A DNA stretch of 22,160 nt, taken from NCBI GenBank assembly GCA_048939465.1, contig JBHLPL010000022.1, positions 1-22,160 of the forward strand, written 5' to 3'. Numbering within the stretch: position 1 is the stretch's first letter; each line of letters opens with the position of its first letter. The notes beneath the pieces are model-generated. The model was not told the origin of the DNA and did no database searches. It was given only the letters and a program-made list of their open reading frames with translations. The stretch is from Promethearchaeota archaeon (GTDB lineage Archaea > Asgardarchaeota > Odinarchaeia > Odinarchaeales > JBHLKK01). This document shows, piece by piece, positions 7,711-18,919 of the stretch. The position numbers were made by a program, and so were the translations under genes.

Positions 7711-9462
7711 ATGAAGGTTAATGATATTTCGATTTTGATCGGAGGAGAAGCTGGCGCAGGAATCACTCGTTCAGGTTATCTTTTGGCTAAAGCCTGTATC
7801 CGAGGCGGTCTCAACGTCTTTGGTGCCAATGACTACCAATCTCTCATAAGAGGCGGGCACAATTTCTACGTTCTTAACATAAAAGCTGAAGAAGTATATT
7901 CACAAGCAGGCCGTACAGATCTGCTCGTTGCACTGAACGATGAGACTATTACTCGTCATAGGGATCGAATGATTTCAGGAGGCGCAATTATCTACGACGG
8001 AGACAATGCCAACTTGAGCCCTAAAATACTGAACAGGAAGGATGTCAGGCTGTACGGAGTTCCTCTGAAAAAGATTGCCAAAGAAGAATTAGAAGGGCAA
8101 ATACTGATGAGAAATACTGTTGCCATTGGAGCTGTATTCGCTCTTGTTAACTACGATTTGGAGCTACTAGAAGGAGTCCTAAAAGACACATTTAAGCCAA
8201 AAATAGCTGAGGCAAACATAAAGGCAGCAAACAAAGGATATGATTATCTAAAAAGCAGTTTTGAGGATGATTTTGGGTATAGGCTTAGAAGAATAGAGAA
8301 GGATCCCAAACAGAAGATCTTTCCTACGGGAAACGAAGCTGTTGGGCTAGGTGCGATTAGTGCTGGATGCAAGTTTTATGTAGCTTACCCGATGACCCCC
8401 TCAACCGGAGTTCTCCATTTTATGGCAGCCAACCAAAGGAAATATGACATGCTTGTTCTGCAACCAGAGGGAGAGATTGCCGCAATGAATATGGCTGCTG
8501 GAGCAGCTTTTGCCGGCGTCAGAGCCATGACTTCAACTTCAGGTGGGGGTTTCTGCCTTATGAGTGAGGCTCTCGGGATGGCAGCTATGACAGAGACGCC
8601 CGTTGTTGTTATGGTATCCCAGAGAACCGGACCAAGCACAGGACTCCCCACTTACACTGCCCAGGGAGATCTAAGGTTTGTCATTCACGCTTCGCAAGGT
8701 GAGTTTCCAAGAGTCGTCATTGCTCCAGGAGACGCTGAGGAGTGTTACTATGAGACCATGAGAGCATTTAACTGGGCTGAAAAGTATCAGATTCCAGTCA
8801 TTCTTCTAATGGATAAATACCTTTCTGAGAGTCAGATGTCAGTTCAGCCATTCAATTCAAATGAGGTAGAGGTTGAAAGGGGCGAACTGATCACTGACGA
8901 GTATAACGGTGATGAGGAGTACAAGAGACACAGAATAACAGAGACAGGGATATCCCCAAGAGCTATTCCGCTCACCAGAGGCGCAATCGTTCGAACTAAT
9001 GCTGATGAGCACGGGGAATATGGCCTTACAACCGAGGATCCTGAGATGACGACAAAAATGATTGACAAGAGGATGAGGAAACTCACTTACTTGGCTAAAG
9101 AGCTTGAAGAAAGGGACATAAAAACGACAAAGCTGTATGGCCCAAGAGACTCTCAAGCAACAGTAATCTCTTGGGGGTCTACAAAGGGCCCGATAAGGGA
9201 AACACTGAAACTCCTAGGCAAAGAAAGAATCAATGTAGACTTCTTGCAGATTCTCTACATACTGCCGTTCCCAGCCGCAAAAGTTGATGAAATCCTCAAT
9301 CAGGCCAAGAAGACCATCGTAATCGAAAATAACAAGACCTCTCAGCTGTCGACCCTCATCAGAGAACATCTTCTCCGAGACGTAGATCATAGAATCCTGA
9401 AATATGACGGAAGACCCTTTGACCCAGATTACCTATCCCAGAAGATTAAGGAGGTTCTGTGA
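7711..9462 (+). CDS. korA: 2-oxoacid:ferredoxin oxidoreductase subunit alpha (gamma-alpha fusion)
   Basis: GGEAGAG, YQSLIRGGHN, GNEA, YPMTPST, EGEIAA, TSTSGGGF, QRTGPSTGLPT and WGSTKG motifs. Substrate specificity not assignable. Confidence 0.95.
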   Translation: MKVNDISILIGGEAGAGITRSGYLLAKACIRGGLNVFGANDYQSLIRGGHNFYVLNIKAEEVYSQAGRTDLLVALNDETITRHRDRMISGGAIIYDGDNANLSPKILNRKDVRLYGVPLKKIAKEELEGQILMRNTVAIGAVFALVNYDLELLEGVLKDTFKPKIAEANIKAANKGYDYLKSSFEDDFGYRLRRIEKDPKQKIFPTGNEAVGLGAISAGCKFYVAYPMTPSTGVLHFMAANQRKYDMLVLQPEGEIAAMNMAAGAAFAGVRAMTSTSGGGFCLMSEALGMAAMTETPVVVMVSQRTGPSTGLPTYTAQGDLRFVIHASQGEFPRVVIAPGDAEECYYETMRAFNWAEKYQIPVILLMDKYLSESQMSVQPFNSNEVEVERGELITDEYNGDEEYKRHRITETGISPRAIPLTRGAIVRTNADEHGEYGLTTEDPEMTTKMIDKRMRKLTYLAKELEERDIKTTKLYGPRDSQATVISWGSTKGPIRETLKLLGKERINVDFLQILYILPFPAAKVDEILNQAKKTIVIENNKTSQLSTLIREHLLRDVDHRILKYDGRPFDPDYLSQKIKEVL

Positions 9463-11755: not shown

Positions 11756-12012
11756 TTATATGACACCCTTGTCAGGAATTGACTTCTGGTAGTTTTCCAG
11801 AATCGCTCTTTCTACTCTGAAGAACCCGAGCTAATTTAAAGTTCATAATATGCACATTCTTATTAATACCTTCAGGATAATACTTCCAATCTACTTGGGC
11901 ATTCCGCTCCGACGCAGTGGTCCGTGATCTCGTTCAGAGAATACTCATCCAAAAAAAGGGTTAGATGGAGAGGCATGAAATGAATCCCCGGAGGCAGTCA
12001 GAACCTACCGAA

Positions 12013-12732
12013 ATGGGTAGCAAGACTAGAGTCTTAAGGATACTTGAGCTTTTGGAGAAAGAGTACCCGGACGCCAAGACAGCTCTTCATTATTCTAACA
12101 GCTTGGAGTTACTGATCGCCACCATTCTGTCGGCTCAATGCACGGACAGAAGGGTGAACTTAGTCACAAAGAAACTCTTCAAAAAGTATAGAAGGGCAAA
12201 AGATTATGCTCAAGCTGATCTTAAGGAGCTTGAAGAAGACGTAAGACCAACCGGTTTTTATAGAAACAAGGCTAAGAACATCAAAATGTGCTGTCAGCTC
12301 CTGGTCGAAAAGTTCAATTCTAAGGTTCCGAAAACAATGAAGGAGATTCTTGAACTTCCAGGTGTCGCCAGAAAAACAGCGAATATTGTGCTATCCAACG
12401 CTTATGGTGTTATTGAAGGAATAGCAGTGGATACTCATGTTCGTAGACTTGCCAAGAGGTTGGGACTCACAAAGCATGGAGAACCAAACAAAATCGAGAG
12501 AGATTTGATGGAGGCAGTCCCCAGAGACAGATGGATGAGAATCACAGACCTCTTAATCTTTCACGGTAGAAGAATATGCAGCGCAAGGAAACCACAGTGT
12601 AAGATATGTGTTTTAAACCTGCTTTGTCCTTCTGCCTTCACATTCGACAAGGTTAAGCAAGGAACCAATTTACCTTCTTCTCCGCAAGGAGACCCCGTCC
12701 GAAAGGGTGGAGACGAATTACGAGGAGTTTAA
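12013..12732 (+). CDS. nth: Endonuclease III (Nth), with a 17-aa C-terminal extension read into an inserted element
   Basis: LLIATILSAQCTD, HhH LPGVARKTAN, AVDTHV, FeS loop C..RKPQC..C.L...C. Start inferred at MGSKT. Confidence 0.95.
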   Translation: MGSKTRVLRILELLEKEYPDAKTALHYSNSLELLIATILSAQCTDRRVNLVTKKLFKKYRRAKDYAQADLKELEEDVRPTGFYRNKAKNIKMCCQLLVEKFNSKVPKTMKEILELPGVARKTANIVLSNAYGVIEGIAVDTHVRRLAKRLGLTKHGEPNKIERDLMEAVPRDRWMRITDLLIFHGRRICSARKPQCKICVLNLLCPSAFTFDKVKQGTNLPSSPQGDPVRKGGDELRGV

Positions 12733-12893
12733 ATACTTGTTTTCCAGATAGCCTCAAGGAATTGAGCTGAGGTAACACTCGCCAATTCACAAACAAAGTT
12801 TCAGGGCAGGAACTGCCCGCAGAGCCTGTAAGACATATCCCATTGGGGAATGGATGAAACAGGAAGCTCCATCCGAAGGGTGGGGTAGTTCAC
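12680..12893 (+). mobile_element. Miniature non-autonomous IS200/IS605-family (tnpB-type) element, copy A (214 bp)
   Basis: The left end matches 18561-18615 at 43/55 nt ungapped. Related subterminal hairpins at both ends: CCCCGTCC-GAAA-GGGTGGAG and CTCCATCC-GAA-GGGTGGGG. The right end GGAAG...GGGGTAGTTCAC is typical of tnpB-element right ends. Residual TnpB-tail peptides GQELPAEPV and MKQEAPS. No tnpA or intact tnpB. In silico excision restores the nth stop codon. Confidence 0.78.
12728..12735 (+). promoter_or_regulatory. TATA box inside the left end of element A
   Basis: TTTAAATA, conserved at the same offset in copy B (18609-18615). Confidence 0.6.
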
Positions 12894-12913
12894 AAACAAT
12901 ATCACTCTCAGTT
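12757..12913 (+). ncRNA. Candidate TnpB omegaRNA (scaffold to 12893 plus about 20-nt flank-derived guide AAACAATATCACTCTCAGTT)
   Basis: Lies about 25 nt downstream of the TATA box. Dense pairing: CTCAA-GGAA-TTGAG, GAATTG/CAATTC, GGGCAG-GAA-CTGCCC, GAACTGCCC (12810-12818) with GGGTAGTTC (12883-12891), and the right-end hairpin. omegaRNAs are known to derive from the tnpB 3' end/right end. The 5' boundary is inferred. Confidence 0.5.
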
Positions 12914-12917
12914 TCAG
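12786..12917 (+). repeat. Direct repeat TTCACAAACAA...AGTTTCAG, internal versus right-end junction
   Basis: TTCACAAACAA at 12786-12796 and 12889-12899; AGTTTCAG at 12797-12804 and 12910-12917 (10 extra nt in the downstream copy). Confidence 0.8.
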
Positions 12918-12937
12918 TAAAACAGGGTGAGTAAATA

Positions 12938-13414
12938 ATGACCCAATTGCAGATCGGCCAGAAAGCACCTGATTTCACTCTAACGGACATGAATTTGAAG
13001 CAAAGGAAACTGAAAGACTTTCTCAGTAAGACCGTGGTTCTTGCGTTTTATCCCGGAGCTTTTACTTCAGTTTGCACAAAGGAGATGTGCACATTTAGAG
13101 ACTCAATGACACTGCTGAATAACTTGAACGCCCTAGTAGTAGGAATAAGTGTCAATGATCCATTTACGAATAAGGCTTTCGCTGAAGCCAACAGTTTGAA
13201 CTTCCCCTTGTTAAGCGATTACAACAGGGAAGTAGCTGAAGCTTATGGAATAGCAGATACTGATTTTGCAGGTCTGAAGGGTTACACGGTTGCAAAGCGC
13301 TCGATATTCATTATTGACGATGAAGGTACTATTCGTTATGTGTGGGTATCAGATGATCCCCGTGTAGAACCAGACTACGGAGAGATTGAAGAAATCTTGA
13401 AAAAGATTGGTTAA
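12938..13414 (+). CDS. bcp: Peroxiredoxin, BCP/PrxQ type
   Basis: APDFTL, FYPGAFTSVCTKEMC (PxxxTxxC plus CxxxxC), GISVND, FPLLSD, KRSIFIID. Confidence 0.93.
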   Translation: MTQLQIGQKAPDFTLTDMNLKQRKLKDFLSKTVVLAFYPGAFTSVCTKEMCTFRDSMTLLNNLNALVVGISVNDPFTNKAFAEANSLNFPLLSDYNREVAEAYGIADTDFAGLKGYTVAKRSIFIIDDEGTIRYVWVSDDPRVEPDYGEIEEILKKIG

Positions 13415-18510: not shown

Positions 18511-18560
18511 TACCGAGACTCCTCCTCACTCAAAGCTGAAATATCTTACTGTGTCTTTTT

Positions 18561-18919
18561 CTCCGCAAAAAGACTCCATCCGGGAGGATGGAGATGAATT
18601 GCGTTGTGTTTAAATGATTTTCCAGTAACTTAAACTTTGGGTAAGATGCTCGTAGGAGGAGGGTTGTTCAACGCGTGAGCGCAAAACCTAGTCTGAGAGC
18701 ATAGGTCTTTCGGGCACATCCTGCTCGACATGGCAGCTGGGTATTTGTGGCGCAAATAACAGAGTCAATCAGCCCCAAGGGCGGAAGAGACCTTGCTGTG
18801 CGGCCCTGAACTCGGAGCACAGAGATCTCCCCCTAGGAATCTGAGAAGCCAAAGTGCCCTCAGACGTATGAAACAGGTAGAGCGAGGAAAGCCCCTTTCG
18901 AAAGCTGGGGTAAGTTCGC
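18561..18919 (+). mobile_element. Degenerate IS200/IS605-family (tnpB-type) element, copy B (about 359 bp)
   Basis: Left end homologous to copy A with a perfect hairpin CTCCATCC-GGGA-GGATGGAG (18574-18593) and TATA at 18609-18615. ATGAAACAGG (18868-18877) is shared with copy A. Decayed right end GGAAAGCCCC...GGGGTAAGTTCGC; the right boundary is less certain. Confidence 0.68.
18680..18880 (+). pseudogene. tnpB: Possible heavily decayed tnpB fragments
   Basis: Fragments NLV*EHRSFGHILLD (compare NMVKNHRL..I.D) and CGPELGAQRSPPRNLR (same spacing as CG.ELDRD.NAARNL). Similarity is weak and judged by eye. Confidence 0.35.

What the first reader, a model, noticed from the sequence alone, without database searches (positions are those of the whole stretch)
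12680..12913. Minimal promoter plus omegaRNA cassette: a TnpB guide-RNA gene without its nuclease
Copy A has lost essentially all coding sequence but keeps the left-end hairpin, a TATA box and, about 25 nt later, roughly 135 nt of highly paired sequence ending in the right end. That is the part of tnpB elements that forms the omegaRNA. A 9-bp long-range helix (12810-12818 with 12883-12891) is intact. It could express a guide RNA in trans for a TnpB, or a nuclease-dead TnpB regulator, encoded elsewhere, with guide AAACAATATCACTCTCAGTT. TnpB is the ancestor of Cas12 and Fanzor, so stand-alone omegaRNA units in a probable Asgard archaeon merit attention. Activity is inferred, not shown.
Basis: partly seen in the sequence, partly recalled or inferred. 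Interest (0 to 1): 0.75.

Follow-up and report, generated by a model that had tools for sequence, protein, structure and literature searches.

The report
Gene-less TnpB guide-RNA mini-transposon
The stretch is one of about 16 copies of a 220-base, protein-less offshoot of an IS200/IS605 transposon in an Asgard archaeon; it keeps the transposon ends, a promoter and the guide-RNA scaffold of a TnpB nuclease encoded elsewhere in the genome, which is a real and well-supported element of a kind already described.

Summary
Window 12674-12893 is a 220-bp non-coding IS200/IS605 derivative (a PATE or MITE). It sits 3' of TTTAC with no target duplication, and a congener has a colinear empty site. It carries a left-end hairpin, a TATA box and a 5' stem-loop that starts 31 nt after the TATA. 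A 94-nt core follows, 94% identical to the 3' end of the genome's one intact tnpB-only element (contig C2, ISDra2-like, RuvC D-E-D present). The genome holds about 16 such copies, one cognate tnpB and one tnpA.

The TATA, 5' stem-loop and core are far better conserved than the spacers. Stems 3 and 4 show compensatory changes. The same cassette occurs in three Asgard families.

The likeliest working is that TnpA moves the element in trans. Its omegaRNA then loads TnpB in trans to cut the vacated TTTAY+flank site and restore the copy. Expression is not shown.

The 9-bp helix is better read as the ISDra2-type pseudoknot plus a local hairpin. No nuclease-dead partner is needed.

PATEs carrying omegaRNAs and standalone omegaRNAs acting in trans are published. 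This scan has already reported the same family in this genome and similar ones elsewhere.

The parts
12669..12673 (+). Target/transposon-adjacent motif TTTAC, directly 5' of the left end
   Evidence: TTTAT or TTTAC precedes the left end in most copies of three element classes and in both full-length elements. The empty site in a congener reads TTTAT|AAAATATATCGC.
12674..12893 (+). Whole 220-bp gene-less IS200/IS605 derivative (PATE/MITE, family 1)
   Evidence: About 16 copies with the same boundaries and unrelated flanks. No target duplication and a colinear empty site.
12693..12712 (+). Left-end subterminal hairpin (CCCCGTCC-GAAA-GGGTGGAG), the presumed TnpA recognition hairpin
   Evidence: Same hairpin type as the right end and as both ends of the tnpA+tnpB element on C105. 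The left and right hairpins change together between genomes.
12714..12735 (+). Promoter region: conserved upstream block plus TATA box TTTAAATA (12728-12735)
   Evidence: Mean pairwise identity 0.83 against 0.62 for the spacer that follows. The same TATA lies upstream of tnpB in the C2 element. The 31-nt spacing from TATA to stem-loop is kept in other genomes and metagenomes.
12736..12757 (+). Variable spacer between the TATA box and the inferred transcription start (about 12758)
   Evidence: Identity 0.62, length constant.
12759..12788 (+). SL1: 5'-terminal stem-loop (GAATTG...CAATTC, 11 pairs) found only in gene-less elements
   Evidence: Identity 0.83. 96.8% of cells paired in 23 copies, but covariation is not significant. 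Absent from all 13 tnpB-linked 3' ends compared. Present in gene-less elements of three Asgard families and in 17 of 17 metagenome hits.
12800..12893 (+). omegaRNA core scaffold (94 nt), homologous to the 3' end of tnpB-only elements
   Evidence: 94% identical to C2:27187-27282. Conserved in tnpB-linked copies of 6 genomes. Proposed structure is 93.5% paired with 10 compensatory pairs; 0 of 500 shuffles reach the paired fraction or the covariation score, 2 of 500 reach the count of compensatory pairs.
12804..12818 (+). Stem 1 hairpin GGGCAG-GAA-CTGCCC; the loop GAA (12810-12812) is the candidate pseudoknot partner of UUC at 12889-12891
   Evidence: 97.8% paired for the hairpin and 97.4% for the 3-bp pseudoknot. 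Same GAA/UUC pairing next to the guide as in the solved ISDra2 omegaRNA (PMC10097598).
12825..12863 (+). Stem 2 (12825-12829 with 12859-12863) enclosing stem 3 (12834-12852)
   Evidence: Stem 3 has three pairs with changes on both sides, for example UA to CG and CG to UA. This part is not a transposase hairpin.
12867..12885 (+). Right-end hairpin, equal to omegaRNA stem 4 (CTCCATCC-GAA-GGGTGGGG)
   Evidence: 6 of 8 pairs show compensatory changes. The loop position -19 to -17 matches the ISDra2 stem 4 loop at -20 to -17.
12886..12893 (+). Right-end tip TAGTTCAC (transposon-encoded motif, cleavage site)
   Evidence: Identity 0.94 across copies. Shared by all element classes.
12894..12913 (+). 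Guide segment taken from the flank (AAACAATATCACTCTCAGTT)
   Evidence: The position follows from homology to tnpB-linked omegaRNAs. Flanks differ between copies. In the genome it matches only its own site.
11965..12732 (+). Endonuclease III-like gene (HhH-GPD) whose last 20 codons now run into the element
   Evidence: Pfam HhH-GPD match, E 1.8e-27. The element lies 14 codons after the last Cys of the Fe-S motif.
12938..13414 (+). Co-oriented peroxiredoxin (AhpC/TSA) gene 45 nt past the right end, possibly read from the element's promoter
   Evidence: Pfam AhpC-TSA match, E 2e-39. The congener's empty site has TTTATAAAA about 46 nt upstream of the ATG, and the insertion splits it.

Best explanation
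Window 12674-12893 is a non-autonomous IS200/IS605 element (a PATE). It arose from a tnpB-carrying element by loss of the coding region. It keeps four things: both TnpA-recognised end hairpins, the element's TATA promoter, a 5' stem-loop of its own, and the complete 94-nt omegaRNA scaffold.

Inferred mechanism:
1. A Y1 TnpA supplied in trans excises and inserts it as single-stranded DNA 3' of TTTAY.
2. The internal promoter starts an RNA at about 12758. This RNA runs through the scaffold into the flank, so each copy makes an omegaRNA whose 16-20-nt guide equals its own right flank.
3. The single ISDra2-like TnpB encoded on contig C2 binds these RNAs in trans.
4. When a copy is excised, the rejoined site (TTTAY plus the flank) is cut by the loaded TnpB.
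5. Recombination with a sister chromosome then restores the copy. The gene-less element thus borrows both the transposase and the homing nuclease.
6. The occupied site is safe, because the guide match is preceded there by GTTCAC and not by the TAM.

A likely side effect is that the outward-reading promoter replaces the promoter of the downstream peroxiredoxin gene, whose TATA-like box the insertion split.

Shown by sequence: identity, boundaries, mobility, homology to the tnpB 3' end, and the conservation pattern. Inferred: transcription, TnpB loading, cleavage and homing.
For: - Copy family with fixed ends and a TTTAY left flank.
- Precise empty sites in two congeners for three copies.
- The last 94 nt are 94% identical to the 3' end of the intact tnpB-only element C2:25971-27282.
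- That TnpB matches ISDra2 TnpB at E 1e-60 with D, E and D aligned.
- A tnpA+tnpB element with the same end hairpins lies on C105.
- Region-specific conservation: TATA 0.83, SL1 0.83 and core 0.84-0.91, against spacer 0.62 and linker 0.64.
- The structure is 93.5% paired with 10 compensatory pairs, and 0 of 500 shuffles reach the paired fraction or the covariation score.
- The architecture matches the solved ISDra2 omegaRNA: GAA/UUC pseudoknot at -5 to -3 and the stem 4 loop near -20 to -17.
- 47-nt terminal-only elements with the same ends exist in 12 or more copies. Mobilisation therefore probably does not need the promoter or the core.
- The cassette is kept in three Asgard families whose TnpB proteins are only 67-71% identical.
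- Published precedent: PATEs often encode omegaRNAs used in trans (PMC10055086). Standalone omegaRNAs were shown to work in trans (PMC10691335).
Against: - No transcript, TnpB binding or cleavage is shown.
- Conservation among copies may reflect selection on a master lineage, not on each copy. No orthologous copy shared with a congener was found that could test decay in place.
- Most covariation lies in the right-end hairpin, which TnpA also needs as DNA. Support outside it rests on stem 3 only.
- The only TnpA in the assembly has Y-F-H where ISDra2 TnpA has H-V-H, so present mobility is uncertain.
- Copies differ by 14-22%, so there has been no recent burst.
- The genome bin is 91% complete and has 152 contigs, so copy counts are approximate.
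Confidence: 0.7

Rival explanations
1. Passive relic. The element is only a deletion derivative moved by TnpA. The promoter and scaffold are carried along from the founder and make no functional RNA.
For: All copies descend from one founder, so shared content alone proves nothing. SL1 covariation is not significant. No RNA data exist.
Against: The TATA, SL1 and core are much better conserved than the spacer and linker, with constant spacing. The cassette persists in three families and in 17 metagenome loci at 80-90% identity. 47-nt versions that lack these parts exist, so the parts could be lost without ending mobility. Stem 3 shows compensatory changes.
Confidence: 0.12
2. Portable promoter or 5' leader. 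The main retained effect of this copy is on the host: it landed in the TATA-like box of the peroxiredoxin gene and now supplies that gene's promoter, with the structured RNA as leader. Guide function would be secondary or lost.
For: The right end lies 45 nt before the co-oriented ATG. 6 of 16 copies have a co-oriented start 11-45 nt past the right end. The empty sites of three copies read TTTTATA(A/G) about 40 nt upstream of the ATG. There is no strong T-run terminator after the right end.
Against: Ten copies lack such a gene, and four of them face a convergent gene end. This reading does not explain the conservation of the core scaffold and its likeness to the tnpB-linked copies. TTTAT before A-rich sequence is common in AT-rich intergenic DNA, so the TATA-box reading is not proven.
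Confidence: 0.15
3. Guide for a nuclease-dead TnpB-like repressor (TldR type) that regulates a host gene.
For: Such repressors are published (titles listed).
Against: The cognate TnpB has the aligned D, E and D. The guide matches only its own flank, where no TAM precedes it. No inactivated TnpB with matching ends was seen.
Confidence: 0.03

Closest known systems
PATEs (palindrome-associated transposable elements) of IS200/IS605, defined in Haloquadratum walsbyi (Dyall-Smith et al. 2011, PMC3119063)
   Same: No terminal inverted repeats, subterminal palindromes like those of IS605-type elements, no target duplication, too short to encode a transposase, many copies, derived by core deletion. Terminal-only versions of about 50 bp also occur.
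   Different: The host here is an Asgard archaeon. This family keeps a promoter plus a full omegaRNA scaffold and has a 5' stem-loop of its own. The 2011 paper predates the omegaRNA concept.
Standalone omegaRNAs of OMEGA systems (Altae-Tran et al. 2021, as summarised in PMC10691335) and the PATE-like elements of Geobacillus stearothermophilus (Meers et al. 2023, PMC10055086)
   Same: Mobilised omegaRNA loci that lack effector and transposase, in genomes that also hold effector-containing loci. They are expected, or shown, to work in trans.
   Different: Function was tested in those bacterial systems and not here. This is an archaeal ISDra2-like lineage with about 16 guide cassettes per cognate tnpB.
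ISDra2 TnpB-omegaRNA (Deinococcus radiodurans; structures 8H1J and 8EXA; PMC10097598)
   Same: The partner TnpB is a clear homologue (E 1e-60) with the catalytic triad. The scaffold ends at the right end. A GAA/UUC pseudoknot lies next to the guide, and the terminal hairpin has its loop near -20 to -17.
   Different: The core is 94 nt against 116 nt. The TAM is TTTAY against TTGAT. Here the scaffold stands behind its own promoter without the gene.
omegaRNAs (sotRNAs) of Halobacterium salinarum (PMC12558985)
   Same: [quoted passage not shown]
   Different: Those are linked to tnpB genes and have expression data. No circular forms can be assessed here.

Membership tests
PATE / gene-less IS200/IS605 element | Subterminal palindromes at both ends, no terminal inverted repeats | tested here: met
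   Left hairpin 12693-12712 and right hairpin 12867-12885 are direct look-alikes (CCNTCC-GAAA-GGGTGG).
PATE / gene-less IS200/IS605 element | Insertion 3' of a short conserved motif without target duplication | tested here: met
   TTTAT/TTTAC precedes the left end in most copies. Joining the window flanks gives a sequence colinear with the congener's locus. The same holds for two other copies.
PATE / gene-less IS200/IS605 element | Too short to encode a transposase; no gene of its own | tested here: met
   The element is 220 bp. The only frame touching it is the tail of the neighbouring nth gene.
PATE / gene-less IS200/IS605 element | Ends shared with an element encoding a Y1 (HUH) TnpA in the same genome | tested here: inconclusive
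   C105:995-2845 carries tnpA+tnpB with the same hairpins and the GTAGTTCAC tip. Its TnpA reads Y-F-H at the HUH motif, although the catalytic Tyr is present.
TnpB omegaRNA | Homology to the 3' end of a tnpB gene, ending at the right end, with the guide taken from the flank | tested here: met
   94% identity to C2:27187-27282, and the same in tnpB-linked copies of five other genomes.
TnpB omegaRNA | Cognate TnpB with an intact RuvC triad in the genome | tested here: met
   383-aa ORF at C2:26093-27241 with Pfam OrfB_IS605, TNB and HTH domains. D, E and D align with ISDra2.
TnpB omegaRNA | Conserved fold with a pseudoknot to the transposon-encoded motif and a right-end hairpin | tested here: inconclusive
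   The fold is kept (93.5% paired) with compensatory changes in stems 3 and 4. The pseudoknot bases hardly vary, so it is compatible but unproven. No Rfam family matches.
TnpB omegaRNA | Transcribed and bound by TnpB | not testable with these tools
   Needs RNA sequencing or biochemistry.
TldR-type nuclease-dead TnpB guide | Partner protein lacks RuvC catalytic residues; the guide matches a TAM-flanked host promoter | tested here: not met
   The triad is intact. The guide matches only its own flank, which has no TAM.

The most novel reading that the evidence does not exclude
The gene-less cassette is an old lineage of its own and not a recent deletion product. Its 5'-terminal stem-loop (SL1) sits exactly at the inferred transcription start. 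It was found only in gene-less elements: 27 copies in six genomes and 17 of 17 metagenome loci, and never at a tnpB 3' end. SL1 would then be an adaptation that lets a guide RNA be made and stabilised without the tnpB mRNA. Because the TAM TTTAT is the first half of an archaeal TATA box, these cassettes would land preferentially in promoters and replace them. Host genes would then be transcribed as 3' extensions of omegaRNAs.
Probability: 0.3. Interest if true: 0.5.

Novelty: new member of a known kind. Interest (0 to 1): 0.3.

Why it matters
The biological role of standalone omegaRNAs is still called unknown in the literature (PMC10691335). This genome offers a clean natural case for studying it. 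It has one intact ISDra2-like tnpB and about 16 promoter-equipped guide cassettes. It also has a built-in comparison class of 47-nt elements with the same ends but no guide RNA.

If the guide cassettes are retained better than the guide-less ones, that would support the homing model for non-autonomous elements. It also adds Asgard archaea to the hosts of such cassettes and provides a compact 94-nt scaffold for an ISDra2-like TnpB. None of this changes current understanding; it extends it.

Tried and rejected
- RNA evidence: no RNA holder was listed for window 11965-13414, so expression could not be examined.
- Rfam: no family at gathering score in the window, and nothing meaningful at E up to 10 in 12600-13000.
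- Second targets of the guides: the 16-nt guides of 19 elements, allowing up to 2 mismatches, match only chance sites without a TAM.
- Donor joint TTTAY+guide in metagenome contigs: none found.
- Same pattern in viral contigs: one hit in a 32% GC contig (TTTAT plus 15 nt, then mismatches, inside what reads as an open frame). By my own estimate a chance match is plausible for so AT-rich a pattern.
- SL1 at the 3' end of any tnpB: not found in the 13 tnpB-linked 3' ends compared or in 17 metagenome loci.
- SL1 covariation: not significant.
- C16:11630-11812, a 182-bp copy, was considered as an independent deletion derivative. It is more likely a family-1 copy with an internal deletion, so it is not used as evidence.
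- Orthologous copies shared with congeners, to test decay in place: the three sites examined are empty in both congeners.
- A TnpB partner for the second repeat family: none found.

Full report
**What is there.**
- TTTAC at 12669-12673.
- A left end starting CTTCTTCTCC at 12674, with a hairpin at 12693-12712.
- TTTAAATA at 12728-12735.
- A structured segment running to ...GTAGTTCAC at 12893.
- The flank AAACAATATCACTCTCAGTT.

As RNA, 12755-12893 folds at -48.4 kcal/mol against -34.3 for shuffles (z -3.9).

**It is a repeat family.** The window lies on contig C39 of a 1.96-Mb, 152-contig genome bin that is 91% complete. BLAST and nhmmer against that genome find about 16 full-length copies of the 220-bp unit at 78-86% identity. 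Aligned with flanks, the copies share exact boundaries. TTTAT or TTTAC lies just left of the element...GTAGTTCAC is the last element sequence, and unrelated DNA follows.

**It is mobile and inserts precisely.** Joining the two window flanks without the element gives a sequence that aligns colinearly with the same nth-peroxiredoxin locus of a same-genus genome (G001). That locus reads ...GAGTTTAT|AAAATATATCGCTCTCAATT.... Two other copies on contig C137 are likewise absent from the syntenic sites of both congeners. There is no target duplication.

**The partners are in the genome.**
- *The nuclease.* C2:25971-27282 is a tnpB-only element. It has the same left end and TATA box and a 383-codon ORF (Pfam OrfB_IS605, Cas12f1-like TNB and HTH_OrfB_IS605). 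Its last 95 nt are 94% identical to window 12800-12893. The protein matches the solved ISDra2 TnpB at E 1e-60, and the three RuvC acidic residues align.
- *The transposase.* C105:995-2845 is a tnpA+tnpB element preceded by TTTAC, with the same end hairpins and tip. Its TnpA is the only Y1 transposase found in the assembly.
- *A caveat.* That TnpA aligns with ISDra2 TnpA and keeps the catalytic tyrosine, but it has Y-F-H where H-V-H is expected. Relatives in another Asgard genome have D-H-I-H.
- *Other tnpB.* tblastn finds no second C2-type tnpB, only a decayed remnant on C73.

**How much is guide-RNA scaffold.** I compared the 3' ends of 13 tnpB-linked elements of this lineage. They come from this genome, two congeners, a Sifarchaeum genome and Borrarchaeum-type genomes, named from the record titles of the matching contigs. 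In all of them, homology to the gene-less element begins at window 12800. Upstream of that point the tnpB-linked sequences are coding and vary in length. The conserved scaffold is therefore the 94 nt at 12800-12893, and the gene-less element keeps all of it.

**Structure of the core.** On an alignment of 38 cores (A3) I tested the following structure:
- stem 1: 12804-12818;
- a 3-bp pseudoknot: GAA 12810-12812 with UUC 12889-12891;
- stem 2: 12825-12829 with 12859-12863;
- stem 3: 12834-12852;
- stem 4: 12867-12885.

The results were:
- 93.5% of cells are paired, against 35-49% when partners are slid.
- Ten pairs show changes on both sides (87 cells).
- The covariation score is 0.266 against 0.135, and 0 of 500 shuffles reach it.
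- Most compensatory changes lie in stem 4, which TnpA also reads as a DNA hairpin.
- Stem 3 is not an end hairpin, and it too has UA to CG and CG to UA exchanges.

The layout fits the solved ISDra2 omegaRNA. There, -5U to -3C pair with -103A to -105G next to the guide, and a terminal stem has its loop at -20 to -17 (PMC10097598). Here UUC is at -5 to -3 and the stem 4 loop is at -19 to -17. It also fits the description of archaeal omegaRNAs in PMC12558985.

As a 9-bp helix, however, it loses its two outer pairs in 13 and 18 of 38 sequences, and it has no covariation support.

**Signs of a working promoter and RNA.** Among 14 full copies the mean pairwise identities are:

| Region | Identity |
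|---|---|
| TATA block | 0.83 |
| 21-nt spacer after the TATA | 0.62 |
| 12758-12790 (SL1) | 0.83 |
| Linker | 0.64 |
| Core | 0.84-0.91 |
| Right-end tip | 0.94 |

The distance from the first T of the TATA box to the first G of the stem-loop is 31 nt here. It is the same in gene-less copies from other genomes and metagenomes, although the spacer sequence differs. That places the start of the RNA at about 12758, by the usual archaeal spacing (general knowledge).

**The 5' stem-loop.** SL1 (12759-12788) is paired in 96.8% of cells in 23 copies. Its changes are mostly one-sided and wobble-compatible, and they are not statistically distinguishable from shuffles. SL1 is absent from every tnpB-linked 3' end examined. 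It is present in gene-less copies of three Asgard families. All 17 metagenome loci that contain it are gene-less elements.

**A guide-less comparison class.** The genome also holds at least 12 terminal-only elements of 47 nt: TTTAT|left tip, one hairpin, GTAGTTCAC. This suggests that mobilisation does not need the promoter or the scaffold.

**Mechanism.** The best reading follows the published model for IS200/IS605 (PMC10055086):
1. TnpA excises the element and reseals the donor.
2. TnpB, loaded with the element's omegaRNA, cuts the resealed TAM-plus-flank site.
3. Recombination restores the element.

For this gene-less element both proteins must act in trans. The guides of 19 elements match only their own flanks in the genome. 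At the occupied site the match is preceded by GTTCAC and not by TTTAY, so self-cutting is avoided. None of the RNA or protein steps is shown here.

**Side effect on neighbours.** The element sits 14 codons after the last cysteine of the endonuclease III-like gene and rewrites its tail. Its right end lies 45 nt before the co-oriented peroxiredoxin ATG. In the congener the empty site reads TTTATAAAA about 46 nt before that ATG. The two C137 sites read TTTTATA(A/G) about 40 nt before co-oriented genes. Six of 16 copies have a co-oriented start 11-45 nt past the right end. The insertions may therefore split TATA-like boxes and supply a replacement promoter. This is an inference and not a general rule: four copies face the 3' end of a convergent gene.

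**Comparison with the known.** The element meets the definition of a PATE (PMC3119063). [quoted passage not shown] Altae-Tran et al. state that standalone omegaRNAs lacking effector and transposase occur beside effector loci and were shown to work in trans, with their role unknown. This scan's earlier notes describe the same family in this genome and like elements in other archaea, with the same verdict. My results agree with them.

**What this analysis adds:**
- the boundary of the core scaffold;
- the mapping onto the ISDra2 pseudoknot;
- the finding that the 5' stem-loop occurs only in gene-less elements;
- the empty sites in congeners;
- the 47-nt comparison class;
- the odd HUH motif of the only TnpA.

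**Verdict.** This is a real, well-supported gene-less IS200/IS605 element carrying a promoter and a complete TnpB guide-RNA scaffold. It is a new member of a known kind. Confidence is about 0.95 for identity and about 0.7 for a working guide RNA used in trans.

Noticed in passing
window 18548-18917 (+): Copy of a second, longer gene-less family of about 360 nt. It has the same type of left end, a TATA box and a GTAGTTCAC-like right end, but a different structured body of about 290 nt. The genome holds 12 to 20 or more copies at only 67-75% identity. The family was seen only in this genus among 41 relatives. No tnpB with a matching 3' end was found. Its first 90 nt or so resemble the left end and 5' UTR of the C2 tnpB element.
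   Followed up: partly
G000 contigs, e.g. C23:1999-2044, C73:16332-16377, C77:37742-37787: At least 12 terminal-only elements of about 47 nt (TTTAT|CTTCTTCTCCGCAAGAAGACTCCATCCGAAAGGGTGGAGTAGTTCAC). They have both tips, one hairpin, no promoter and no scaffold, like the 52-bp PATEs of Haloquadratum.
   Followed up: partly
G000:C105:1150-1554 (L037:1150-1554): The only Y1 TnpA found in the assembly has D-Y-F-H where ISDra2 TnpA has D-H-V-H (the HUH motif). The catalytic Tyr is kept. TnpA was not found with this query in four related genomes that carry the same repeat family.
   Followed up: partly
window 12669-12732: The insertion lies inside the 3' end of the endonuclease III-like gene. The last 20 codons (PSSPQGDPVRKGGDELRGV plus stop) are read from the element. 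The reconstructed empty site would give a different 14-codon tail.
   Followed up: partly
window 12669-12937; G000:C137:2633-2888 and 8599-8861: The empty sites of three copies read TTTAT|A within TTTTATA(A/G)-like boxes about 40 nt upstream of co-oriented start codons. The TAM resembles the first half of an archaeal TATA box, so promoters may be favoured landing sites.
   Followed up: partly
L199:2415-2434 (IMGVR_UViG_3300009183_008372): A viral contig carries TTTAT plus the first 15 nt of this copy's guide. The contig is 32% GC and the match lies in what reads as an open frame, so I take it as chance.
   Followed up: partly
genome level: The congener G001 corresponds to a record titled 'Candidatus Hodarchaeota archaeon DZ1B.307' (same contig coordinates). 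Earlier notes of this scan call the genome Odinarchaeia. I did not resolve the class-level label. Asgard membership is consistent.
   Followed up: no
G000:C16:11630-11812: A 182-bp copy that lacks most of the 5' stem-loop but keeps the left end, the TATA box and the core. It is probably an internally deleted family-1 copy.
   Followed up: no
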